Shown here in pieces: positions 1 through 52,807 of a stretch of DNA of 64,000 nt. The position numbers were made by a program, and so were the translations under genes. Every line of letters begins with the position of its first letter. Position 1 is the first letter of the stretch. The stretch comes from Squalus acanthias. Lineage: Eukaryota. The DNA is taken from the NCBI GenBank assembly GCA_030390025.1, contig CM059432.1, forward strand, positions 60,514,001 to 60,578,000. Direction: 5' to 3'. The notes under the pieces are model-generated. The model saw only the letters and a list, made by a program, of their open reading frames with translations, did no database searches and had not been told where the DNA came from.

Positions 1-375
1 AGGCAGAGAAAGGGGGGAGGGGAGGAAAGAACAAAAAGGACGGTCTGTGCTAGAGTGGAAGGCAGGAGAGATTAAATTATAGCTAAAGGAGATGGCAGAA
101 TCATCAACAGCTGCCATGTGAAAAAATAGGGGCATGGTTATAGACTGAAATTGTGGAATTCAATGTTGAGTCCAGAAGACTGTAAAGTGCCTAATCGAAA
201 GATGAGGTGCTGTTCCTCGAGCTTACGTTGAGGTTCATTGGAACAGTGTAAGAGGCCGAGGACAGAGTGGGAGTGAGCAGAGAATTAAAGTGACAGGTGA
301 CCGGAAGCTCAGGGTCACCCTTACGGACTGTTCCGCAAAGTGGTTTCCTCTACATTGGCAAGACCAAACGCAGCA
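1..375 (-). mobile_element. Penelope-like element fragment (GIY-YIG endonuclease C-terminal region, with a short inverted piece)
   Basis: The minus strand reads HFAE...LGLLHCSNEPQRKLEEQHLIFRLGTLQSSGLNIEF, typical of the PLE GIY-YIG C-terminus. The upstream motif GFLYIGKTKR lies on the + strand at ~342-371. Confidence 0.75.
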
Positions 376-390
376 TTTTCTGTTGCTTTT

Positions 391-2883
391 CACCCCTCAA
401 CCTCCTTTGCTCTAATGAAAACAAATTCAACTTCTCCAACCTGTCCTTGTCGCTAAGATCCCCCATCCTCGGAACCATTCTGGTAAATCTCGTCTGCACC
501 CTCTCAAGGGCCTTCACATCTTTCCTAAAGTGTGGTGACCAGAACTGGACGCAATACTCCAGTTGTGGTCTAACCAGCGCTTTATAAAGGTTCAGCATAA
601 CTTTTCTACTTTTGTACTCAATACCTCTATTTATGAAGCCTAAGATCCCATATGCTTTGTTAACCACTCTCTCAATATGTCCTGCCACCTTCAGGGACCT
701 ATGGACATTAACTCCCAGGTCCCTCTGTCCCTGCACACTCTTTAAAACTGTGCCATTAAGTGTATGTTGCCTCTCCCTGTTCCTTCTGCCAAAATGCATC
801 ACCTCACACTTCTCTGTATTAAATTCCATCTGTCACTTGTCTGCCCATTCTGCTAGCCTTTCTATGTCCTGTTGCAGTCGATTGGTATCATAATCACTGT
901 TTGCCACACCCCCAAGTTTGGTGTCACGGCAAATTTAGAAATTCTACTCTGTATTCCAATATCCAGGTCATTTATATATATCAAAAAAAGCATGGCCCCA
1001 GCACTGACCCTTGGGGAACACCACTGTCTACCATCCTCCAGTCTGAAAAACAGCCATTTACCACAACTCATTTTTTTCTGTCCTTAAGCCAATTCCTTAT
1101 CCTAGCTGCCACTGACCCACCTATTCCACGAGCCTCAATTTTGTTAACCAGCCTTCTATGTGGTACTTTGTCAAACGCCTTCCGAAAATCTATGTAGACA
1201 ACATCCATTGCATTCCCTTCATCAATCTTCTCTGTTACTTCATCAAAAAATTCAATTAGATTAGTCAAACACGATCTGCCTTTTACAAATCCGTGTTGGC
1301 TCTCTTTAATAAGCTTAAACTTCTCCAAGCGCCTGTTAATTTTTTCCTTGATTATTGTTTCTAAAACTTTACCCACCACTGATGTTAAACTGACCGGCAT
1401 GTAGTTACTAGGATTGTCCTTACACCCTTTCTTGAACAATGGTGTCACATTTGCCACTTTCCAATCCTCAGGCACCTCCCCTGCATCTAGGTAAGATTGG
1501 AAAATTATGGCAAGCCCTTCTGCTATCTCCTCCCCCAATTCCCTTAGCAACCTGGGATGCAAGCCATCTGGACCAGGCGACTTGTCCACTCTAAGTATAC
1601 CCAGCCTTTCTGGTACATCCTGTCTATCAATTTTCACCCCTTCCATTGCTTATACCTTTTCCACTTCTACCGATATTTTGTCAGCATCCACCTCCTTAGT
1701 AAACACCAATACAATGTACTCATTGAGTATTCTAGCCTTGCCCTGTGACTCTAAGCATATATCACCTTCTTTGTCTCTAATAGGCCCCACCCTGCCTCTT
1801 ACTACCCGCTTACTGTTTACATGCCGGTAGAAAATTTTTGGGTTCCCTTTTATGTTAACCGCCATTCTACTCTCATATTCTCTCTTTGTCAATCTTACTT
1901 TGATCTTCACATCCCCTCTCAACTTATTGTATTTGGTCTGCTTCTTCCTTGAAGAATTCATCTGACATGCATCATACACCCGCTTTTTTTGTTTTATCAT
2001 CTTCTCTATCTCCCTCGTCGTCCAAAGAGCCCTTGCTTTGGTTCCCTTACCCTTCCCTCTTGTTGGAATGTAGCTACCCTGTACTTGGAACATTTGCTCC
2101 TTAAAAATCACCCATTGTTCCATTACAGTTTTTCCTGTCAGTCTTTGGTTCCATTTTACCCTGGCTAGATCCTTTCGCATCCCACTGAAGTTAGCCCTAG
2201 TCCAGTTTAGAAGTTCCACTCTAGATTGTTCCTTGCTCCTCTCCATTGCTAATCTAAATCTTATGATACGCTGATCACTCGTACCCGAGTGTTCTCCCAC
2301 AGACACTTGGTCGACCTGGCCCACCTCATTCCCCAGCACCAGATCCAGCAATGCTTCCTTCCTAGTTGGGCCAAGAACATATTGGTCAAGGAAATTCTCC
2401 TGAACACATGTCAGAAATTCCTCCCCCTCCTTTCCCTTTACCCTAGCATTATCCCAATCGATATTTGGGTAAGTAAATTCCTCCAATATCACCACTCGAT
2501 AGCTCTTGCATATCTCTGTGATTTCCCTGCAGATTTGCTCCCTTACCTCCCACTCACTATTTGGAGGCCAATTGCGTGATCATACCCTTTTTGCTCAACT
2601 CTAACCAAATGGATTCTGTCCTTGTCCCCTCAAGAACATCCTCCCTTTCCAACACTACAATGTCTTCCTTAATCAGCACTGCCACCCCACCTCCCTTTTT
2701 TCCTTCCTTGTCTTTTCTGAACACCTTGTACCCTTGAATATTAAGTGCCCAGTCCTCACCGTTTTTAAGCCACATTTCCGTTATTGCCACAACATCATAT
2801 TGCCACACGGCTAATTGTGCTTGTAGCTCGCCAACCTTATTCACCACACTTTGTGCGTTTACGTACATGCATTCTAAACCCAT
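391..2883 (-). pseudogene. CR1 ORF2 (APE endonuclease + reverse transcriptase), frameshifted and partly deleted
   Basis: Motifs YVNAQSVVNK, VAITEMWL, GGGVAVLIK, LDLVL, KSPGPDGLHPRLL, QHGFVKGRSCLTNL, YIDFRKAFDKVPH and RPQLEYCVQFWSP. Confidence 0.92.
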
Positions 2884-3044
2884 TTTTGAATTTTTCGTAG
2901 TCTTTCTTAGTCTGCTCCTATCTAATATGGTACTATTACCACCTCTAGTACTATCTTATCTAGTAATATCCAACACACTCACTCTTTTATGCACCTTATT
3001 CCTCTTTTCTACTCCTATATGCTGGTGCCCATCCCCCTGCCAAG

Positions 3045-3994
3045 CTAGTTTAAACCCTTCCCAACAGCACTAACAAACCTCCCCGCGAGAATATTGGTCC
3101 TGGCTCTGTTGAGGTGTAACCCGTCCGGCTTATACAGGTTCCACCTTCCCCAGAAACGGTCCCAATGCCTCAGGAATCTAAATACCTCCCTCCTGTACCA
3201 TCTCTCCAGCCACGCATTCATCTGTTCTATCCTCCTATTCCTATATTCACTAGCACGTGGCACCGGGAGTAATCCGGAGATTACTACCTTTGAGGTCCTG
3301 CTTTTTAATCTCTCTCCTAGCTCCGTAAACCTCTGCCTGCAGGACCTCATCCCTCTTTCTGCCTATGTCGTTAGTACCGATATGGACAACGACCTCTGGC
3401 TGTTCACCCTCCCCCCTCAGAGTGTCCTGCAGCTGCTCTGACATCCTTGACCCTGGCACCAGGCTGGCAACATAACATCCTGGAGTCACGTCTACGGCCG
3501 CAGAAATGCCTGGCTGCTCCCCTAACCTTCGAATCCACTACCACTATTGCATTTTCACTCTTTTTCCTCCCCCCCTGTGCAGCTGAGCCACCCGTGGTGC
3601 CGTGAACTTGACTCTGGCTGCACTCCCCGGAGGAACCATCGCCCTCACCAGTACTCAGAACAGAATACTGGTTGGAGAGTGCGATGCATTCCAGGGACTC
3701 ATGCACTACCTGCCTGGTCCTTCTCTTCTGTCTGGCGGTCACCCATTCCCTCTCTGCCTGCATACTCTTAAGCTGCGGGGTGACCACCTCTAGAAACGTG
3801 CTATCCACGTAACTCTCAGCCTCGCGGATGCACCGCAGTGATTCCAGCCGCCGCTCAAGCTCCGAAACCCGGAGCTCGAGTTGCTGTAGCTGGCGACACT
3901 TCCCGCACATGTGGTTGTCCAGGCTACGCGAAGCGTCCAGGACTTCCCACATGGCACAGGTTGTGCACTCCACGGGACTGAGCTGCCCTGACAT
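3045..3994 (-). pseudogene. CR1 ORF1 (zinc finger/leucine zipper + SGNH esterase), frameshifted
   Basis: CTTCAMW..CGKC zinc finger, LQQLELRVSELERRLESL coiled coil, and esterase motifs VVDSKVRG, PGARV, VVVHIGTNDIG, DGLHLN. Confidence 0.9.
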
Positions 3995-5084
3995 GCCTCT
4001 ATTTAATAGACTAAGAACTAACCCAGCAGAAATAAACTTAAAACTTAACAAAAAACACTCCCCAGCTACTCACCAATCAGATCTTTCCCTCTATTTAATA
4101 GGCTATTAACTAACTTAGCAGAAATAAACTTATAAACTTAAAAAAAATACACTCACCAGCTACTCACCAATCAGCTCCTTCCCTTGTGCCGATATCAATT
4201 TTTTTACTCTGACGTCACTTTTTCAAAAACTGCCTCTGTTGAGTTGCTGCCGCTCTTTTTAACTGCTCCGCTCTCGCTGTGCTCCCTCCAGGTCCGCTCC
4301 GTCTGGTCTCAGGCTCCTGCTGCTCGGGACTGCTCCTTTTAGCTGCTCCGCTCTTGCTGCGCTCCCTCCAGGTCCGCTCCCTCCGGTCTCGCTTCCCCAT
4401 TACAAGAAACTCCCCATTACCAACAAAAACTTAAACAAGTCTCATTATCAGCACTTTCCCGATGAAATGTAATGAGCAATAAATTATATACAATTAATAA
4501 CTTGCAGTTAGATAGATGCTTTCCTGTTACAAAAAGCAAACACAATGGCCGGAATTTTCCCAGTGCTAAGTGTGCGGGTTTGGGGGCAAGTCAGCAGTAA
4601 AGATCGCGGAAATTGCCAGTGCGTCGGGAACCCACCGCCAACCCGCAGACTTCCGCATTGAACTCGGGATCATTTCCCAGCATGCCACGGACCCACTCGG
4701 GAGAGGCGGGCGACCTCATTGAAGTACTTAAATGCTTGTTGAGAGTCCCTTAAGAGACTTTTTAACATCAGGTTTTGGCTTTAACTTCTTCAGCACAGGA
4801 TTCACGCACCTCGGGAACCTCGCCTCTGAAGGGGAGGAGGAAGCTCAGTGGCCATTGTGCGAGTCCATTAAGTGACAGCTGGAAAAAACACATTAAATAC
4901 TCACACATTACACCTGCTTCTTTGCCTAATGGAAAGGCTCTTGCTGACACCATTTTGTGCAGAGATTTAGCTGTCAGGAGTTTGCAGGTCATTCGGAAGC
5001 CATTCTCACCACATTGCTAGTCACTATCAGAACATTGAGGGACTGTGCCTCTGATCTCCACTTTACCTGCCATCTATTAGATCA

Positions 5085-7273: not shown

Positions 7274-9371
7274 CTAGGATTGTGTCTTTTGTCTTTTGCA
7301 CGTGCTTCTACAAGGTGCGATCCCTATGGCTTCAGCAGGCTGCTCACTTCCATGCTGCGACTGCTTTGACACTTTTGGCGGACGTCCTCTGGGTTTTGGA
7401 GCCTGTGAGAGCCCTGCCAAAGACTGCTCGTCCTGCAACTGCGCAGGAGGAAGATTTGGCAATCAGGATCCGAGGCTCTGACTGAGGGGGAGGCAACGGG
7501 GGAGAAGTAGGTGCGCTTTGAGAAGAGCCCCCACTTCCATGTCCCCTGTCAACATCATCCCTCTCACAGGCCACCCGCACTTCCCTGCTAGCAAGGTGCT
7601 GGAGAGCACCTTGCTGCACATCAGTGGGGTGATGAAGGCCCAAGTCTATGTTAATATCCATCCTCGAGATGAGCTCAATGAGTGTCTGCCATCTGTTGTT
7701 CACAGCAAGCATGTTCTTGTTGGACTGGCGCATGTGCTGCTCCATGCAGCTGGCCATCCTTTCCAGATGGTGGTGCTCATGTTGGAGACGGACTCTTCCA
7801 TTCTCTGTACATTTGCACACATCGTGGCTGAAAAAGCTGCCAGAGCCTCATGCAATTGTTGCTGCCCCTCCAAGATCACCCCCTTTCTCGATGGCTCCGA
7901 GGTTTAGCATCTGCATGCAGCTCAGCAGAGCTTGGAGCATCCTGTGCCCTCCGGCAAGGAGTCTCCACTGCTGTCCCTGTCAACACCATCTGCTCTCGGT
8001 CATTTGTGATGTGTGAGACACCAGGTGACAGCATACTCTATCTCGCACAGGACCTACTGAGGTGTGTGTATCTGCGCTGGCTGCGCATGGGTCTGCTGAC
8101 GGTGCACCCTCTGAGGAGTCGTCTTCCTCCTCCGGCTGAACAGTGGGCAGGGGGGTTGGGGGCAGTTGATGGGCCTGTGGGAGAGTAAAGAGATGAATTA
8201 TACGTGTTATGATAAGAATGGGTAATATTACCATTATGCACAGATGACATTTCACTGGCTGCTGACATTAGTCACCATATGAGTGACTGTTGTATGTCAT
8301 GTGGCTGTATGAGATTTAATTCTGTCACCAGGTTGCTGGGAGGTCCCCCTCTCTTCGTCCCCCACCGCCAGCAGCTCTGCAGCTCCAGAGATTTCAAAGG
8401 CGTGCTCCTCTGCTGCTGTCAAATTACATAAGACTGGAGGGCCACCTCTGGTTCTCTGCCTCTCCCTATTGTTCTGGGCTCTCTTCTCCTGCGAGGAGGG
8501 AAAGAAGAGAACTTTGAGTGAGAGTGATGGAATGAGTGTAAGGAATGGATGGGCTACATCTGTAGAGGGTGACTATGAGGGAGTGGTGTGACATTGTCAA
8601 ATCGCCTCCTTCTGTGGTGTTACTTGCTATGATTGCATTAGGATGAAGGTGTCAGTGGTGGTTAGTCAGATGGGGATGTGAGTAGGTACATAGACAGAGA
8701 GGGATGGGTGCACCTGCAAGGTAGGTTGGTGTGAGGAGTGATGTGCAGGGTTAGGCTTGGGAAGGCAGAATGATGGGGTTGGGGTGACACGCACATCAGG
8801 ATGTAGCTGAGTTTTTTTTATTCGTTTTTATGGTATGTGGGCGTCGCTGGCAAGGCCAGTATTTATTGCCCATCCCTAATTGCCCTTGAGAAAGTGGTGG
8901 TGAGCTGCCTTCTTGAACCGCTGCAGACCGTGTGGTGAAGGTACTCCCACAGTGCTGTTAGGTAGGGAGTTCCAGGATTTTGACCCAGCGACGATGAAGG
9001 ATCGGCGATATATTTCCAAGTCAGGGCGGTGTGTGACTTGGAGGGGAACTTGGAGGTGGTGAGGTTCCCATGCACCTACTGCCCTTGTCCTTCTAGGTGG
9101 AAGAGGTCGCGGGTTTGGGAGGCACTGCACTCACCTTTCCTCACCTCATGAGATCATTGAATCTCTTGCGGCACTGGATCCACGTCCTCCTTACGACATC
9201 CCTGCTACTGACCTCCTCTGCAATCTCTGGCCATGCCCTTTTTGTCTCTTTGGATGGTCGTTTTCGTCCATCCCCAGGGAAGAGGACCTCCCTGCGTTCT
9301 CGTACTGCCTGCACCAGCACTTTCAGGGAGGCATCTGCGAATCTTGCCGCTGCCCTCTGTCTTGTCTCCAT
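7274..9371 (-). pseudogene. Harbinger Myb/SANT DNA-binding gene, 3 exons (9371-9135, 8488-8329, 8174-~7274)
   Basis: METRQRAAARFADASLKVLVQAV..WPEIAEEV..RTWIQCRKRFNDL is a Myb/SANT-like domain. GT-AG introns. Basic C-terminus PRGRPPKV. Confidence 0.85.
8813..9127 (-). mobile_element. 3'-terminal fragment of the tRNA-headed LINE family
   Basis: Near-identical to 11645-11955 including the A-tail. Inserted just inside Myb intron 1. Confidence 0.88.
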
Positions 9372-9942
9372 GACCCAAAGATTCCGTAACTTAGAGCTCT
9401 TGAAACCCCTTTCTACACTCCTACATCAACCTTCAAATGAGATGTGTGCAAGACTGCTTTAAATATCAGCGCTGAAAACGAGTCATCGGTGATGTCATCA
9501 GACCTGCTCCATTTAATTGGGCTGGGAAATGCGCATGAGTCTTTCATTTTGTGCCATTAAGTTAAATACGCAGTGCAGAACGTGCTTTTCAAATCTTCGG
9601 GTTCCCAACCCGCTACGCGGCCCGCACGCACCCGACACGACTCCAAGGTAAGGATTCCGGCCAATGACTTGACAGATAAAGGATCAGATTCATCCTTTAA
9701 ATGTCAAAATCAGTCAGTAGCTGTTCTCAACTCGAGCTTTTAATATTTCTTTTCTCCTCTGAGAAGGGTCTGACAAGTTATTCTAGTCAGCTATAATAGT
9801 GCACAAGGTTGCCTGCAAATATCTTCATCTTTTCACTCCTCTCAAAACCTGGGTAAATATATTTCCAGTATCAATCCTAATGGAAGGTCAGTGCTGGAAG
9901 ATTGTTTTTAAGTTTTGGCTTAATGTATTTGCCTCAAACACG

Positions 9943-11191: not shown

Positions 11192-11644
11192 CTACAGAAA
11201 ACAGAGTTAGATCAGAATTTGCAATACAAACACAGTAGCCAAGGCTTGACAACATTATCAAATATGAACTGTAATTTTGTATAACATTTTTAAAATGCAA
11301 CTCTTAAAAGGGAAATTGTTTAATTTTGGACAATTTTGTCATATTAAGATATTAGAAAACTAAAATTGATATTTTCACATTTTCAAGTTTGCTCTTTATA
11401 ACCACAAAATTGGAGACACCAGCGGTGGAGCTTCAAACAGCAGGGGAAACAGCGCCAACCTGATTGGAGACACCAGCGTCGACGATTTCCAAAAAAAGCA
11501 TAGTGTGGCATCACAGGACAGCGGGTAAGTGATTGGTTGGTGAGTATTAAGTTTTATTTATCTCTAACCTAGGACAGTGGTTTAAGCTAGGTGCGGGAAA
11601 CTACAAAGTACTGTATTAAATTTATAGCTTAACTAGTTAAACTA

Positions 11645-14600
11645 TTTTTTTATTCGTTTATGGGATCTGGGCATCGCTGGCAAGACCAGCATTTATTGCC
11701 CATCCTAATTGCCCTCGAGAAGGTAGTGGTGAGCCGCCTTCTTGAACCGCTGCAGTCCGTGTGGTGAAGGTACTCCCACAGTGCTGGTAGGGAGGGAGTT
11801 CCAGGATTTTGACCCAGCGACGATGAAGGATCGGCGATATACTTCTAAGTCAGGATGGTGTGTGACTTGGAGGGGAACTTGGAGGTGGTGGTGTTCCATG
11901 CGCCTGCTGCCCTTGTCCTTCTAGGTGGAAGAGGTTGTGGGTTTGGGAGGTGCTGCCGAAGAAGCCTTGGCGAGTTTCTGCAGTGCATCTTGTAGATGGT
12001 ACACACTGTAGCCACGGTACGCCGGCGGTGGAGGGAGTGAATGTTTAAGGTGGTGGATGGGGTGCCAATCAAGCGGGCTGCTTTGTCCCGGATGGTGTCG
12101 AGCTTCTTGAGTTTGTTGGAGCTGCACTCATCCAGGCAAGTGGAGAGTATTCCATCACACTCCTTACTTGTGCCTTCTGGATGGTGGAAAGGCTTTGGGA
12201 AGTCAGGAGGTGAGACACTCGCCGCAGAATACCTAGCCTCTGACCTGCTCTTGTTGCCACAGTATTTATGTGCCTGGTCCAGTTAAGTTTCTGGTCAATG
12301 GTGACCCCCAGGATGTTGATAATGGGGGATACAGCGATGGTAATGCCATTGAATGTCATGGGGAGGTGGTTAGACTCTCGCTTGTTGGAGATAGTCATTG
12401 CCAGGCACTTCTGTGGCACGAATGTTACCTACCACTTATCAGCCCAAGCCTGAACGTCGTCCAGGTCTTGTTGCATGCGGGCATGGACTGCTTCATTATC
12501 TGTGGAATTGTGAATGGCGCTGAACACTGTGCAGTCATCAGCGAACATCCCCATGTTGGAGGGAAGGTCATTGATGAAGCAGCTGAAGATGGTTGGGCCT
12601 AGGACACTGCCCTGAGGAACTCCTGCAGCGATGTCCTGGGGCTGTGATGATTGACCTTCAACCACCACAACCATCATCCTTTGTGCTAGGTATGACTCCA
12701 GCCAGTGGAGCGTTTCCCCCTGATTCCCATTGACTTCAGTTTTACGAGGGCTCCTTGATGCCAGACTCGGTCAAATGCAGCCTTGATGTCAAGGGCAGTC
12801 ACTCTCACCTCACCTCTGGAATTCAGCTCCTTTGTCCATGTTTGAACCAAGGCTGTAATGAGGTCTGGAGCCGAGTGGTCTTGGTGGAACCCAAACTGGG
12901 CATCAGTGAGCAGGTTATTGGTGAGTAAGTGCCGCTTGATAGCACTGTCAATGACACCTTCCATCCCTTTGCTGATGATTGAGAGTAGACTGATGGGGCG
13001 GTAATTGGCCGGGTTGGATTTGTCCTGCTTTTTGTGGACAGGACATACCTGGGCAGTTTTCCACATTGTCGGATAGATGCCAGTGTTGTAATGTACTGGA
13101 ACAGCTTGGCTAGAGGCGTGGCTAGTTCTGGAGCACAAGTCTTCAGCACGATAGCCGGGATGTTGTCGGGGCCCATAGCCTTTGCTGTATCCAGTGCGCT
13201 CAGCCGTTTCTTGATATCACGTGGAGTGAATCGAATTGGCTGAAGACTGGCTTCTGTGATGGCGGGGACCTCGGGAGTAGGCCGATATGGATCATCCACT
13301 CGGCACTTCTGGCTGAAGTTGGTTGCAAATGCTTCAGCCTTGTCTTTTGCACTCATGTACTGGGCTCCACCATCATTGAGGATGGGGGTATTCTTGGAGC
13401 CTCCTCCTCCCGTTAGTTGTTTAATGGTCCACCACCATTCACGACTGGATGTGGCAGGACTGCAGAGCTTTGATCTGATCCGTTGATTCTGGGATCGCTT
13501 AGCCCTGTCTTTAGCATGCTGCTGCCGCTTTTTAGCATGCATGTAGTCCTGTGTTGCAGCTTCCCCAGGTTGGCACCTCATTTTTAGGTATGCCTGGTGC
13601 TGCTCTTGGCATGCTCTTCTACACTCGTTGTTGAACCAGGGTTGGTCCCCTGGCTTGGTGGTAATGGTAGAGTGAGGGATATGCCGGGCCATGAGGTTAC
13701 AGATTGTGGTGGAATACAATTCTGCTGCTGCTGATGTCCCACAGCGCCTCATGGATGCCCAGCTTTGAGCTGCTAGATCTATTCTGAATCTATCCCATTT
13801 AGCACGGTGGTAGTGCCACACAATACGATGGAGGGTGTTCTCAGTGTGAAGACGGGACTTTGTCTCCACAAGGACTGTGCGGTAGTCACTGCTGCCAATG
13901 CTGTCATGGACAGATGCATCTGCGACAGGGAGATTGGTGAGGACGAGGTCAAGTAGGTTTTTCCCTCGTGTTGGTTCATTCACCACCTGTCGCAGGCCCA
14001 GACTGGCAGTTATGTCCTTCAGGACTCGGCCAGCTCGGTCAGTAGTGGTGCTACCGAGCCACTCTTGGTGATGGACATTGAAGTCCCTCACCCAGAGTAC
14101 ATTCTGTGCCCCTGCCACTCTCAGTGCTTCTTCCAAGTTGTGTTCAACATTGAGGAGTACTGATTCATCAGCTGAGGGAGGTAATCAGCAGGAGGTTTCC
14201 TTGCCCATGCTTGACCTGAAGCCATGAGACTTCATGGGGTCCGGAGTCAATGTTGAGGACTCCCAGGGCCACTCCTTCCCGACTTTATACCACTGTGCCA
14301 CCACCCCTGGTGGGTCTGTCCTGCCGGTGGGACTGGACAAACCCAGGGATGATGATGGAGGAGTTTGGGACATTGGCTGAAAGGTATGATTCGGTGAGTA
14401 AGACTATGTCAGGCTGGTGCTTGACTAGTCTATGGGACAGCTCTCCCAATTTTGGCACAAGTCCCCAGATGTTGGTGAGGAGGATTTTGCAGGGTTGACT
14501 GAGCTGGGCTGTTGCTGTGTCTGTAGCCGGTGCCGAGGTTGATGCCGGGTCGTCGTCCGGTTTCATTCTTATTATTTTGTTTCGTAGCGGTTAGTTACAA

Positions 14601-14925
14601 CTGAGTGATTTGCTAGGCCATTTCAGAGGGCAGTTAAGAGTCAACCACATTGCTGTGGGTCTGGAGTCACATATAAGCCAGACCAGGTAAGGACGGCAGA
14701 TTTCCTTCCCTAAAGGACATTAGTGAACCAGATGGGTTTTTACGACAAGCCGATAGTTTCATGATTTCCATTACTGATACTAGCTTTTTATTCCAGATTT
14801 ATTTAATTAACTGAATTTAAATTCCCCAGCTACCATGGTGGGATTTGAACTCACGTCTCTGGATCATTAGTCCAGGCCTCTGGATTACTAGCCCAGTGAC
14901 ATTACCACTACGCTACCGTTCCCGT
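11645..14925 (-). mobile_element. Single-ORF non-LTR retrotransposon (CR1/L2-group RT, exact clade uncertain) with tRNA-derived 5' head and A-tail
   Basis: A broken ORF from ATG 14566 to ~11705 carries APE motifs (TNIWGL, LTESYL, RGGG, DFNVHH, LLDLVLTN) and RT motifs ([32 protein letters not shown]). No ORF1. AATAAA plus A-tail at the 3' end. Confidence 0.9.
14835..14925 (-). promoter_or_regulatory. tRNA-Gln-like head with Pol III A box (14915-14905) and B box (14852-14841)
   Basis: Sense sequence GGGAACGG-TAGCGTAGTGG-TAATGTCA-CTGGGCTAGTAATCCAG-AGGC-CTGGACTAATGATCCAG-AGACGT-GAGTTCAAATCC-CACCATGG. Confidence 0.75.
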
Positions 14926-28215: not shown

Positions 28216-29270
28216 ATGACACAACAGGGGAGAGAGTAGGCTCCAAGATTTTCTGACGCAGCACTGGAGACCTTGGTGCAGGAGGTGGACAGGAGGAGAG
28301 AGGTCCTCTATCCACAGGGGGCCAGGAGGCCCTCCAACCAAACAGTGAGAAGGCAATGGGAGCAGATAGCCGTTGCAGTCAATGCCAGCAGTATAGCACC
28401 GAGGACCTGGATCCAGTACTGCAAGAAGAAGTTTAATGACCTCACACAAATGGTTAAGGTCAGTGAATTCATCTTCAAATGCCATATCGTTACAACTCAA
28501 CCACTAGGCTCACACACTGCTCAATTCACCCCCCCAACCCTGCTTCATTCACCTACCAAAAAAATCTCTATCAATCACGATTCATACCTCACATTCATAG
28601 CTTCACCTCACCCTCACACACTTAGCACTGCTGCAAGCCTCCTACCCACATCACACACTGCTAGTTAGTCAACCATGACAGCCAAATCACCCAAACAAAT
28701 TGCATCACAATCACTGACACACTTCCCTCTCTCTTGCAGGACAAGGTGGCTCATAACTGGAGGCAGCAGGGGCTACCCGCAGGGAGTCAGGCACACCTGA
28801 ATGACCTAACCCGCATGGAGGAGATGGTGGTGGAGATTATTGGAGCAGCCATCGCTGAGCCCATGGCCAGCAGCAGGGCTGAAACAATGGAAGATGATAG
28901 TATCCTCATACCTAACCTCTTTCTCACATCCCACTTCCCCCTCATCCCACAAGCTCTTCTGATTTACAAGCTGCAGATGGTGTAAGCATGCACTTCTTGC
29001 TTTCCCCCCACCACCCATCACCGCAACCCTACCCTTGTGTCTTTCTCCTTTCAGATAGCCAAGAACTGCAACCTGGCCAGGCAGTGGTGGAGTAAAAACT
29101 GGAAGAGAAATAAGTCAGTGATGCTGAAGACACAGCATCGTCACTCGATTTCACACTCGCAACCACCAGCTCAAATTTAGACACTCCGCGTACTTTAGAG
29201 GATAGCTTATACGGAAGATCTGCACAAGTTGAGTTATCGGGCATGAGTGGCCTGCAGCCAGGTCAGGGGG
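28216..29270 (+). pseudogene. Harbinger Myb/SANT gene (exons 28216-28458, 28740-28899, 29055-truncated)
   Basis: APRFSDAALETLVQEVDRRREVLYP..WEQIAVAV..RTWIQYCKKKFNDL, with GT-AG introns. Confidence 0.85.
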
Positions 29271-30072
29271 CAAGGGAAGCGGAGATGTTTAGGTTGCGGA
29301 GCGGAGTCATAAGCCAGGTGGTCAGCGGATAGTCCTTGTCACCCAGTAGCCAGCATCTGTCTTGTTTTGGTGGTTCAAAGACTGAGGGAACAGCGGATTG
29401 GCACAGAATAAAAGCATCATGACTGCTGCCAGGATACTGGGCATTCACCATCATGATGTGCTGAGCATGTTCGCACACCAACTGCACATTCAGCGAGTGG
29501 TAACCTTTGCGGTTGTGGTACACCTCAGCATTTAGATACGGTGCCCACAAAGCCACATGCGTGCAGTCAATGGTGCCACCCACCATGGGGAAGCCCGCTA
29601 TCCTGGCAAAGCCAAGTGCATGCTCCGCCTGATTCTCTCTGGTCACAGAGAAGACAATGAAGTCCCTCTCCTGGCATAGAGCTTCTGTCACCTCTCTTAA
29701 ACAGCAGTGGACGGCGAACTGCAAGATGTTACAAATGTCGCCTGCTCCAGCCTGGAAGGATCCCAGTGCGAAGAAATTCAGGGCCGCAGTCATCTTCACA
29801 GCCACTGGCAGCGCTGTCCTTGCCCTAGTGTGAGGCTGCATGTCTGGTTGCAAGAGGTGACAGAGTTCAGTGAGCACTTCCTTCGTAAAGCGCAAATGCC
29901 TCACACACTGCTCCTGGCTCAGGCTCAGGTTGGAGAATTGCTCTTGGTAGGTAGGTAAGGCCTCCTGCTGAGAGCCCTTCCCTCCCTCCTCCCTCTGAAC
30001 TTCTTCTTCGCTGCCTCTGCATCATCTCCCGTCATGCTGCAGGCCAAGGGAGATTACAACTAGAGCACCCAT
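29263..30072 (-). pseudogene. Harbinger transposase, C-terminally truncated
   Basis: 213-aa open stretch with ALPVAVK, GGTIDCTH, RKGYHSLNVQLVC, YPGSSHDAFIL, LLGDKDYPL. The final acidic catalytic motif region is absent. Confidence 0.9.
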
Positions 30073-49904: not shown

Positions 49905-52310
49905 CTTTTTTTATTTGTTTATGGGATGTGGGTGTCGCTGGCAAGGCCAGCATTTATTGCCCATCCCTAATTGCCCTTGAAAAGGTGGTGGTGAGCCGCC
50001 TAGGGAATTCCAGGATTTTGACCAAGCGACGATGAAGGATCGGCGATGTACTTCTAAGTCAGGATGGTGTGTGACTTGGAGGGGAACTTGGAGGTGGTGG
50101 TGTTCCCATGTGCCTGCTGCCCTTGTCCTTCTAGGTGGAAGAGGTCACGGGTTTGGGAGGTGCTGCCGAAGAAGCCTTGGCGAGTTGCTGCAGTGCATCT
50201 TGTAGATGGTACACACTGTAGCCACGGTACACCGGTGGTGGAGGGAGTGAATGTTTAAAGTGGTGGGTGGGCTGCCAATCAAGCGGGCTGCTTTGTTCTG
50301 GATGGTGTCGAGCTTCTTGAGTGCTGTTGCAGCTGCACTCATCCAGGCAAGTGGAGAGTATTCCATCACACTCCATACTTGTGCCTTGTAGATGGTGGAA
50401 AGGCTTTGGGGAGTCAGGAGGTGAGACACTCGCCGCAGAATACCTAGCCTCTGACCTGCTCTTGTTGCCACAGTATTTATGTGGCTGGTCCAGTTAAGTT
50501 TCTGGTCAATGGTGACCCCCAGGATGTTGATGGTGGACGATTCAGCGATAGTAATGCCGTTGAATATCAAGTGGAGGTGGTTAGACCCTCGCTTGTTCGA
50601 GATAGTCATTGCCTGGTACTTCTGTGGCGCGAATGTTACCTGCCACTTATCATCCCAAGCCTGAATGTCGTCCAGGTCTTGTTGCATGCTGGCATGGACA
50701 GCTTCATTATCTGAGGAGTTGTGAATGGCGCTGAACACTGTGCAGTCATCAGCGAACATCCCCATTTCTGACCTTATGTTGGAGGGAAGGTCATTGATGA
50801 AGCAGCTGAAGATGGTTGGGCCTAGGACACTGCCCTGAGGAACTCCTGCCGCGATGTCCTGGGGCTGTGATGATTGACCTTCAACCGCCACAACCATCTT
50901 CCTTTGTGCTAGGTATGACTCCAGTCAGTGGAGCGTTTTCCCCTTGATTCCCATTGACTTCAGTTTTACTAGGGCTCCTTGATGCCACACTCGGTCAAAT
51001 GCTGCCTTGATGTCAAGGGCAGTCACTCTCACCTCACCTCTGGAATTCAGCTCCTTTGTCCATGTTTGGACAAAGGTTGTAATGAGGTCGGGAGCCGAGT
51101 GCTCTTGGCGGAACCCAAACTGGGCATCAGTGAGCAGGTTATTGGTGAGTAAGTGCCGCTTGATAGCACTGTCGATGACACTTTCCATCACTTTGCTGAT
51201 GATTGAGAGTAGACTGATGGGGCGGTAATTGGCCGGGTTGGATTTGTCCTGCTTTTTGTGGACAGGACATATCTGGGCAGTTTTCCACATTGTGGGATAG
51301 ATGCCAGTGTTGTGGCTTTACTGGAACAGCTTGGTTAGAGGCACGGCTAGTTCTGGAGCGCGTCTTCAGCACAATAGCCGGGATGTTGTCGGGGCCCATA
51401 GCCTTTGCTGTATCCAGTGCGTTCAGCCGTTTCTTGATATCACGTGGAGTGAATCGAATTGGCTGAAGTCTGGCATCTGTGATGGTGGGGACCGCAGGAG
51501 TAGGCCGATATGGACTTCGTCTCCACAATGACTGTGCCGTGGTCACTGCTACCAATGCTGTCATGGACAGATGCATCTGCGACAGGTAGATTTGTGAGGA
51601 CGAAGTCAAGTAGGATTTTCCCCTCATGTTGGTTCTCTCGCCACCTGTCGCAGGCCCAGACTGGCAGTTATGTCCTTCAGGACTCGGCCACCTCGGTCAG
51701 TTGTGGTGCTACTGAGCCACTCTTGGTGATGGACATTGAAGTACCCCACCCAGAGTACATTCTGTGCCCTTGCTACTCTCAGTCCTTCTTCCAAGTGGTG
51801 TTCAACATGTCGGAGTACTGATTCATCAGCTGAGGGAGGGCGGTAGGTGGTAATCAGCAGGAGGTTTCCTTGCCCATGCTTGACCTGAAGCCATGAGACT
51901 TCATGGGGTCCGGAGTCAATGTTGAGGACTCCCAGAGCCACTCCTTCCCGACTGTATACCACTGTGCAGCCACCCCTGGTGGGTCTGTCCTGTTGGTGCG
52001 ACTGGACATACCCAGGGATGGAGGAGTTTGGGATATTGGCTGAAAGGTATGATTCTGTTAGTATGACTATGTCAGGCTGTTGCTTAACAGTCTGTGGGAC
52101 AGCTCTCCCAATTTTGGCACAAGTACCCAGATGTTGGTGAGGAGGACTTTGCAGTGTCAACTGGGTTGGGTGTGCCGATGCCGAGGTCGATGCCGGGTGG
52201 TCCGTCCATTTTTATTCTTATGATTGTGTTTCGTAACGGTTTGTTACAACTGAGTGGCTTGCTAGGCCATTTCAGAGGGCAGTTAAGAGTCATCCACATT
52301 GCTGTGGGTC
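49905..52310 (-). mobile_element. Second copy of the tRNA-headed single-ORF LINE (5'-truncated, internal deletions)
   Basis: Colinear with 11645-14661. About 570 bp is deleted at ~51512, and a small deletion lies at ~50000. Confidence 0.9.
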
Positions 52311-52807
52311 TTACTACCCCTTTACTGTTTCTATGCCTATAGAAGACTTTTGGATTATCTATATCTTTCCCACTAGTTGGTAGCCCATAGAATACACCTA
52401 GTAGTGTAATGGCACCTCTATTATTTCTTAACTCTAACCAAATAGATTCTGTCCTTGACCCCTCCAGGACATCCTCTCTCTCCAGCACTGTAACATTCTC
52501 CTTAACCAATACTGCCACACCACCTCCTTTCTTTCCTTCCCTATCTTTCCTGAACACCTTATATCCAGGAATATTTAAAACCCAATCCTGCCCTTTTTTG
52601 AGCCGGGTCTCTGTTATCGCCACAACATCATATTCCCATTTGGCTATTTACACCTGCAGCTCACCAACCTTATTTACCATGCCTTACACACATGCACTGT
52701 AAACCTGTCTTAGACCTTCTTGTACTCTCTCTTAGTCTGACCCTACCTAATTCCTTACTATTTCTTACTCTTGTGCTATCTGTCTCTCCCCATCCTTTAC
52801 GCACTTT

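What the first reader, a model, noticed from the sequence alone, without database searches (positions are those of the whole stretch)
11655..14925. No TTTT on the sense strand across 3.3 kb of the tRNA-headed LINE (terminator avoidance)
Seen: reading the + strand line by line I found no AAAA and only about eight AAA runs, so the element's sense strand has no T4 and few T3. Sense-strand A4+ runs are common, and neighbouring CR1 elements carry sense T4+ runs. Copy 2 has a single sense T4 (~49980), at the extreme 3' end, where copy 1 differs. A rough hand estimate at ~21% T would expect several T4 runs and roughly 20+ T3 runs. Established: vertebrate Pol III terminates at four or more T. Inference: the coding sequence was selected for Pol III read-through, which supports the Pol III model independently of the head.
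Basis: partly seen in the sequence, partly recalled or inferred. Interest (0 to 1): 0.85.

Follow-up and report, generated by a model that had tools for sequence, protein, structure and literature searches.

The report
Shark LINE lacking Pol III terminators
This decayed copy of a 3.3-kb shark-and-ray jumping gene (Zenon LINE) starts with the tRNA-like promoter of a SINE, and its coding strand is unusually free of the T-rich signals that stop RNA polymerase III, so it may be a protein-coding element copied by that polymerase, which sequence alone cannot prove.

Summary
Observation confirmed: no sense T4 and 8 T3 in 11655-14925. The family consensus (30 copies) has 0 T4 and 7 T3. The element matches the published elasmobranch Zenon LINE. 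Its five-species consensus set all begin with a tRNA/Deu-SINE head that the paper never mentions. T4=0 alone is weak: P 0.02 against base shuffles, 0.15-0.37 once codons are kept, and a headless CR1 here has 2.55 kb without T4. The wider signal is stronger. All 7 T3 are isolated, the form that is inactive in vitro. Only one interrupted T-tract occurs (4.1-14 expected, by null model; P 0.06 to 0.0001). None of 70 related LINE ORFs or three shark LINE families is as depleted. Mutation bias, splice-tract and poly(A)-signal avoidance do not explain it; general TT avoidance is not excluded. Best reading (0.6): a Pol III-transcribed coding LINE purged of terminators. No transcript evidence exists, and translation is unexplained (no in-frame AUG before the endonuclease). 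The scan reported this family before on other DNA (87 notes fit); none named Zenon.

The parts
11645..14925 (-). Copy 1: near full-length, decayed Zenon-type LINE (96.5% to the 3314-nt family consensus), inserted between CR1-like flanks
   Evidence: first 170 nt of my consensus equal SquAca_Zenon-1 by eye, same length 3314
14829..14925 (-). tRNA-like head; element 5' end lies 10 nt before the A box
   Evidence: ARAGORN hit 14829-14901; Rfam tRNA 22.3 bits, below the gathering score of 29; 7 of 30 copies start within 13 nt of this end, and the five that start within 3 nt have unrelated upstream flanks
14905..14915 (-). A-box-like motif
   Evidence: sequence against the recalled type-2 promoter consensus
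14841..14852 (-). B-box-like motif
   Evidence: sequence, T-arm of the Rfam alignment; canonical GGTTCGAATCC in three other species' Zenon (read by eye)
14598..14828 (-). SINE body (Deu-like; label recalled, not tested against a reference), shared with short SINE copies that join it straight to the tail
   Evidence: L046, L033; joints 11701-11765 to 14589-14628 in four runs
11705..14594 (-). Single AP-endonuclease + reverse transcriptase frame (973 codons stop to stop in the consensus; frameshifted in this copy); first in-frame Met only after 286 residues, beyond the endonuclease
14564..14566 (-). ATG out of frame with the endonuclease, opening a 48-codon overlapping frame; seen in all five species' Zenon-1, not in two old copies
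   Evidence: (by eye)
11959..11963 (-). The only 4-of-5-T window of the consensus (T2CT2, a weak non-canonical terminator type)
   Evidence: PMC3141230 section 14
11645..11760 (-). 3' tail shared with the SINE: hairpin, AATAAA and oligo-A
   Evidence: hairpin in the MFE fold but z only -1.1
11491..11497 (-). First sense T-run (T7) in the flank, about 150 nt past the tail: where Pol III would stop at this locus (inferred)
49906..52311 (-). Copy 2: 5'-truncated (starts at consensus 264), internal deletion of about 560 nt, one copy-specific T4 at 49980-49983
8813..9128 (-). Copy 3: 3' fragment

Best explanation
An ancestral ORF1-less Zenon LINE took over the tRNA head and body of a SINE with which it shares its tail, or the SINE is a deletion product of it. 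Since before sharks and rays split, the element has been transcribed from the internal A/B-box promoter by Pol III. Pol III runs through 3.3 kb, passes the oligo-A tail and stops at the first T-run of the flank, as for Alu. Only masters without canonical or interrupted T-tracts made full-length RNA, so the lineage lost them at synonymous sites, at codon junctions and by dropping dispensable Phe. The same uncapped RNA is translated by a non-standard start and reverse-transcribed from its tail. Shown: structure, family-wide head, T-tract depletion, purifying selection on the ORF, absence of mutation bias. Inferred: Pol III use, selection on termination, mode of translation.
For: 30 copies, 89,899 nt: 10 T4+ vs 412 A4+, 282 C4+, 229 G4+; 22 of 30 have none. 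Consensus ORF: T3 5 vs 11.4 in codon shuffles (P 0.0045). 4-of-5-T windows: 1 vs 6.0 (P 0.008), while the same windows for A, C and G are not depleted. Whole element vs dinucleotide shuffles: 1 vs 6.7 (P 0.003). These windows are the T3VT, TVT3 and T2VT2 motifs that terminate human Pol III in vitro, while isolated T3 does not (PMC3141230); 7 of 7 consensus T3 have no T within 2 nt. Controls: 70 of 70 related ORFs hold 2 or more T4. Observed/expected ratios are 0.17 (tracts) and 0.43 (T3) vs minima of 0.66 and 0.65. Regression on T content predicts 14.1 tracts, 20 T3 and 4.3 T4 (P 0.0001, 0.0009, 0.026). Three shark LINE families are not depleted. The nearest relative with DNA (L097) has 20 T4 and, by eye and by ARAGORN, no head. 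Phe is 1.8% vs 2.6% or more in 70 relatives, and all 3 TTT codons precede G, as from CpG decay. Mutations after insertion create T-runs at normal rates (C>T 0.015-0.022 at risk sites vs 0.018). An older subfamily, 11.6% diverged with 134 of 232 changes at third positions, also shows no T4 in 2001 called sites. Head with both boxes starts Zenon-1 of five species.
Against: T4=0 is not significant under codon-aware nulls (P 0.15, 0.18, 0.37). With CpG context kept, the tract deficit falls to 1 vs 4.1 (P 0.061) and T3 to 5 vs 9.5 (P 0.026); isolated junction TT is also low (6 vs 10.2, P 0.078). With the TT count fixed the excess vanishes. By z-score, 1 of 70 relatives (tracts) and 2 of 70 (T3) are as low against codon shuffles. 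Phe is only 1.6 SD below the T-content fit. Lineage tests are underpowered and negative: shared vs rare variants P 0.42; subfamily changes P 0.15 and 0.23. Only 2 of the 70 controls with DNA fall in the element's own clade; they are not independent and come from other hosts. 'Headless' is untested for the many 5'-incomplete contigs. The tail keeps an AATAAA + oligo-A end that would suit Pol II. No data on polymerase, 5' end or cap.
Confidence: 0.6

Rival explanations
1. Pol II transcribes the element. The head is a passenger, a translation or RNA-stability element, or a Pol II promoter. Low T and UU reflect selection on the RNA, for example escape from UU/UA-cutting nucleases such as RNase L (recalled) or from U-rich binding proteins.
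For: Junction TT O/E 0.34 and TA 0.73; no excess deficit once TT is fixed; isolated junction TT 6 vs 10.2; translation needs no special mechanism if the RNA is capped; AATAAA-oligo-A end.
Against: TA is within the control range (relatives' minimum 0.63, shark L2 0.66) while TT is outside it (minimum 0.55; shark families 0.82-1.01). Runs of exactly two T are not short in the ORF (64 vs about 65). Pyrimidine tracts are enriched (18 vs 12.4) and poly(A) signals are at expectation (1 vs 1.0). Two AATAAA sit in the first 140 nt. The 5' end sits at type-2 promoter distance from the A box.
Confidence: 0.2
2. Chance plus composition: a C-rich, T-poor LINE (19% T) with CpG decay has few T-runs anyway, and the pattern was picked after the fact.
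For: Expected T4 is only 0.9-1.7 under codon nulls; a headless CR1 has 2552 nt and an L2 1264 nt without T4; several statistics were tried.
Against: Composition-matched relatives (T 16.5-21%: L105, L121, L122, L163, L174) keep 2-11 T4 and 5-23 tracts. The CR1 T4-free stretch holds 19 T3. In the window, the six 2.5-kb slices with fewest tracts (1-7) all overlap the two copies, and the lowest slice clear of them has 11.
Confidence: 0.12
3. Split labour: Pol III makes the RNA that is copied (hence the purge), but the protein comes from capped Pol II read-through transcripts of copies lying in host transcription units and acts in trans through the shared tail.
For: No in-frame AUG before the endonuclease in the consensus or in the 18 copies read; the SINE with the same tail is mobilised in trans (inferred).
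Against: Third-position bias between subfamilies implies selection on the ORF of the replicating RNA, which is easiest with cis action; Pol II read-through does not supply the missing AUG either.
Confidence: 0.08

Closest known systems
Elasmobranch Zenon LINEs (SquAca_Zenon-1 and the CarCar, RhiTyp, ScyCan, HypSab Zenon-1 consensus sequences; PMC13343379, 2026)
   Same: No ORF1, poly-A tail, APE+RT, 3.2-3.3 kb; 5' sequence and length match my consensus.
   Different: The main text has 0 occurrences of 'tRNA' and of 'promoter': head, Pol III reading and T-tract depletion are not described there. Only the first 400 nt of each consensus could be seen.
Other Zenons (Lepidoptera, PMC6740152; hagfish and coelacanth in PMC13343379)
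   Same: Single ORF, poly-A tail.
   Different: The lepidopteran Zenon-derived SIDE, whose 5' part is the Zenon 5' UTR, has no tRNA homology or Pol III promoter. The two hagfish consensus starts show no such head and several T4+ runs by eye; the coelacanth start is low-confidence sequence.
SacSINE1 / LmeSINE1 Deu-SINEs (PMC5499810)
   Same: tRNA head, Deu body, LINE-type tail, in cartilaginous fish; short head-body-tail copies exist in this genome (L046, L033).
   Different: Non-coding, about 0.4 kb. The paper assigns the tail to L2-2_CM at 78.6%; here head, body and tail all lie on one coding Zenon. I could not compare with the SacSINE1 sequence itself.
RTE-1_DAn and relatives; Bov-tA, SINE2-1_ACar (PMC5786205, PMC4494074)
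   Same: tRNA-like sequence in a LINE, or a tRNA head fused to LINE ends.
   Different: Other clades; the fusions are non-coding SINEs; for RTE-1_DAn only a passing mention was seen, no Pol III claim.
R2 retrotransposons (recalled, no call)
   Same: Works like: a coding non-LTR element not made by Pol II, uncapped, without a conserved AUG.
   Different: Pol I co-transcript in rDNA, ribozyme-released, different clade.

Membership tests
Zenon (CR1 group) | No ORF1; single APE+RT frame | tested here: met
Zenon (CR1 group) | Poly-A tail | tested here: met
Zenon (CR1 group) | Identity to published elasmobranch Zenon consensus | tested here: met
   5' part and length only, by eye
Zenon (CR1 group) | RT groups with named Zenon references | tested here: inconclusive
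   clade of 14 (support 0.98) apart from shark CR1s, but no named Zenon reference in the tree
tRNA-derived SINE (SINE2) | tRNA-related head with A and B boxes at the 5' end | tested here: met
   (sub-threshold)
tRNA-derived SINE (SINE2) | Short and non-coding | tested here: not met
   3314 nt, 973-codon frame
Deu-SINE superfamily | Deu domain in the body | not tested
   no reference sequence at hand; label recalled; supplement of PMC5499810 not readable
Pol III type-2 transcription unit | No internal T4+ on the non-template strand | tested here: met
Pol III type-2 transcription unit | Few interrupted T-tracts beyond composition | tested here: inconclusive
   P 0.0001-0.008 in four nulls, 0.06-0.10 in two stricter ones
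Pol III type-2 transcription unit | Pol III/TFIIIC occupancy, 5'-triphosphate RNA, box-dependent transcription | not testable with these tools
   only assembled contigs were available
Canonical L2 clade | RT closer to L2 than to Zenon/CR1; no poly-A tail | tested here: not met
   poly-A present, said to be unique to Zenon in the group; the shark L2 fragment was too short for the tree

The most novel reading that the evidence does not exclude
Sharks and rays carry an autonomous, protein-coding retrotransposon lineage that has been transcribed by Pol III since their common ancestor. Its 2.9-kb ORF, down to its amino-acid choice, was reshaped to avoid Pol III terminators. Its SINE body serves as the cap- and AUG-independent (or frameshift-coupled) translation element, which would give the long-unexplained Deu domain a function.
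Probability: 0.3. Interest if true: 0.92.

Novelty: new variant of a known kind. Interest (0 to 1): 0.7.

Why it matters
LINEs are taken to be Pol II and SINEs Pol III transcripts (PMC5786205, PMC4494074). A natural 3.3-kb coding Pol III unit in a vertebrate would break that divide. It would show how an uncapped Pol III RNA is translated and offer a testable role and origin for a conserved SINE body. The T-tract rule also gives a sequence-only screen for further such elements. The family is large (28,509 candidates in the first look) and its consensus is already public, so the test is cheap.

Tried and rejected
Viral contigs: 11 pattern hits, 0 relatives. Searches seeded with three diverged 3' fragments returned mostly the same young family. 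Two searches with old copies gave places but no loci, so the old subfamily rests on 10 copies aligned pairwise to the young consensus and leans towards it. Sequencing runs: near-identical sequence (share of words 0.42-0.76) in 17 of 24 listed runs from six coded organisms; the four laid were contigs only, and the two 'RNA' labels are guesses, so nothing on start, strand, cap or expression. Folding of the region before the ORF: no unusual structure (z +0.65), so no support for an IRES fold. No canonical slippery heptamer seen by eye before the endonuclease motif. No clear target-site duplication at copy 1 (by eye). Rejected: splice-acceptor avoidance and poly(A)-signal avoidance, mutation bias, a SINE inserted by chance next to a LINE. 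Literature: nine searches found no paper calling this or any autonomous LINE Pol III-transcribed; subscription journals and Repbase/Dfam records were not searched.

Full report
1. Observation. In 11655-14925 the + strand has 8 AAA runs and no AAAA at 20.2% A, and 13 TTTT+ runs; this is the longest AAAA-free stretch of the window. The element lies on the - strand from 14925 to 11645. Copy 2 (49906-52311) has one sense T4 at 49980-49983, a copy-specific change; copy 3 (8813-9128) is a 3' fragment. The description is accurate.

2. What it is. A genome search gave 28,509 candidates, 40 scored. The 30 loci fetched (window copy included) give a 3314-nt consensus, about 97% to the copies, with one 973-codon endonuclease-RT frame and an oligo-A tail. 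Seven of 30 copies start within 13 nt of the same 5' end, 10 nt before an A box. A tRNA-like head is found by ARAGORN and, below threshold, by Rfam. Short copies join the first 330 nt straight to the tail (L046, L033; joints in four runs). Luchetti et al. (PMC5499810; part 2 of the text and passages; supplement not readable) describe SacSINE1 with tRNA head, Deu body and a tail assigned to L2-2_CM; that my SINE is SacSINE1 is recalled, not tested. A 2026 survey (PMC13343379; passages; supplement rows cut at 400 characters) defines Zenon by no ORF1 and a poly-A tail and finds it in five elasmobranchs, coelacanth and hagfish. Its SquAca_Zenon-1 is 3314 nt and equals my first 170 nt but for two leading bases. 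By eye, Zenon-1 of all five species (four sharks, one ray) begins with the head, both boxes kept and the spacer varied, with no TTTT in the 400 nt shown. The two hagfish starts lack it and have T4+ runs. The main text never uses 'tRNA' or 'promoter'. A lepidopteran Zenon 5' part has no tRNA homology (PMC6740152, passages). So the head is a lineage trait, older than the shark-ray split, on a known LINE.

3. Is the T-run lack more than chance? Family-wide: 10 T4+ in 89,899 nt, 22 of 30 copies with none; 24 in 203,713 nt over 154 segments. Consensus: 0 T4, 7 T3. T4 expected: 3.7 (bases, P 0.02), 1.4 (dinucleotides, P 0.23), 1.6 (synonymous shuffle of the ORF, P 0.15), 0.9 (CpG context kept, P 0.37). 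So T4=0 alone proves little, and a headless CR1 consensus has 2552 nt without T4. T3 in the ORF: 5 vs 11.4 (P 0.0045) and vs 9.5 (P 0.026). Orioli et al. (PMC3141230; abstract and section 14) show that T3VT, TVT3, T2VT2 and longer interrupted tracts stop human Pol III in part, whereas isolated T3 does not. These motifs are the windows with 4 T in 5 nt. The consensus has one (T2CT2, window 11959-11963), against 6.0 (codon shuffle, P 0.008), 9.6 (bases, P 0.001), 6.7 (dinucleotides, whole element, P 0.003), 4.1 (CpG-stratified, P 0.061) and 3.4 (TT count fixed, P 0.10). All 7 T3 are isolated. A, C and G show no such deficit in 4-of-5 windows.

4. Controls. Of 80 related loci from metagenomes, 70 had a frame of 400 codons or more; 10 were dropped. 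All 70 have at least 2 T4. None has an observed/expected ratio as low for T3 or tracts; by z-score against codon shuffles, 2 and 1 of 70 do. Regression on T content predicts 14.1 tracts, 20 T3 and 4.3 T4 for this ORF (P 0.0001, 0.0009, 0.026). ARAGORN on 60 of the 80 found one antisense hit inside an ORF, a weak test since many contigs lack the 5' end. Only L096 and L097 fall in the element's clade of 14 (support 0.98; 88 of 92 sequences in the tree); they have 4 and 20 T4, at 26% and 30% T. Two CR1 families (14 copies each) and an L2 family (20 copies) from the same genome show no depletion under the stratified null. Junction TT O/E is 0.34 vs 0.82-1.01 in these and 0.55 or more in the 70.

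5. Cause. It is not mutational: rare C>T changes arise at 0.015 (tract-creating), 0.022 (T3-creating) and 0.018 (other) per covered site. It is not splice or poly(A) avoidance: pyrimidine tracts 18 vs 12.4, signals 1 vs 1.0. Phe is 18 of 973, below all 70 relatives and all ten closest proteins (3.0-6.2%). Conserved Phe are kept (11 of 13) and half-conserved ones lost (2 of 25, vs 7 of 27-28 in three relatives), but this is only 1.6 SD below the T-content fit. TTT:TTC is 3:15 (P 0.28 against other NNY); all three TTT precede G, leaving 0:13 elsewhere (P 0.07). An older subfamily (10 copies, 2001 called sites, 11.6% diverged, changes 58/40/134 by codon position) has no T4 and 3 T3. Direct lineage tests point the right way but are not significant (P 0.15, 0.23, 0.42). 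General UU avoidance remains open: isolated junction TT is 6 vs 10.2 (P 0.078), although TA is within the control range.

6. How it likely works. Shown: the anatomy, the depletion, selection on the ORF. Inferred: Pol III starts 10 nt before the A box, reads through, and ends at the first flank T-run (T7 at 11491-11497 for this copy); the RT recognises the tail hairpin shared with the SINE. Unexplained: translation. The frame has no AUG before the endonuclease in the consensus or in the 18 copies read, whereas the closest invertebrate proteins begin with Met. An out-of-frame ATG (14564-14566) is present in all five species' consensus (by eye) but not in two old copies. The region has no unusual fold. 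This fits an uncapped, non-standard start, as recalled for R2, but does not show it.

7. Novelty and verdict. The family is published as Zenon; the head, the Pol III reading and the tract depletion were not found in nine literature searches. [quoted passage not shown] Kojima 2015 (PMC4494074, passages) uses internal oligo-T to exclude Pol III for SINEU, the same logic in reverse. PMC7245038 (first part) and PMC11481361 (passages: Zenon partners for Deu and other SINEs in bivalves) were also seen. The scan noted this family before (87 notes fit, 8 shown); none used the word Zenon. Verdict: observation confirmed, interpretation partly supported, Pol III model 0.6, new variant of a known kind, interest 0.7.

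Noticed in passing
window 14564-14594 and 14420-14566 (- strand): No in-frame AUG precedes the endonuclease; a conserved out-of-frame ATG opens a 48-codon frame that overlaps its start. Non-AUG initiation or a non-canonical frameshift is implied.
   Followed up: partly
window 14787-14807 (- strand): Two AATAAA and one ATTAAA in the first 140 nt of the element; AATAAA is also seen there in three other species' Zenon.
   Followed up: partly
L046:168-552, L033:4701-5087: Short SINE copies made of the LINE's head, body and tail; Zenon rather than L2 may be the partner of the shark Deu-SINE. The vertebrates with Zenon (elasmobranchs, coelacanth, hagfish) are also known hosts of tRNA-headed Deu-SINEs.
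   Followed up: partly
window 350-4100 (- strand): CR1 family whose consensus has 2552 nt without sense T4 but 19 T3; all 9 ORF2 T4 lie in the RT half.
   Followed up: yes
window 7836-9475 and 29263-30021 (- strand): Fragments that look like Harbinger-type Myb/SANT and nuclease genes (by eye, from recall); the first is a 1.6-kb AAAA-free stretch interrupted by copy 3.
   Followed up: no
L296-L305: An older subfamily about 12% from the young one; L296 keeps B box and body joined to the ORF, its A-box part is replaced.
   Followed up: partly
L117:1965-2039: ARAGORN calls an antisense tRNA-Ile inside a related LINE ORF; this ORF also has few T4 (3 vs 7.5). Probably chance.
   Followed up: no
proteins P0008, P0012, P0016, P0018: Annotated shark host proteins contain 74-88% identical pieces of this ORF, probably gene-model artefacts or exonised copies.
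   Followed up: no
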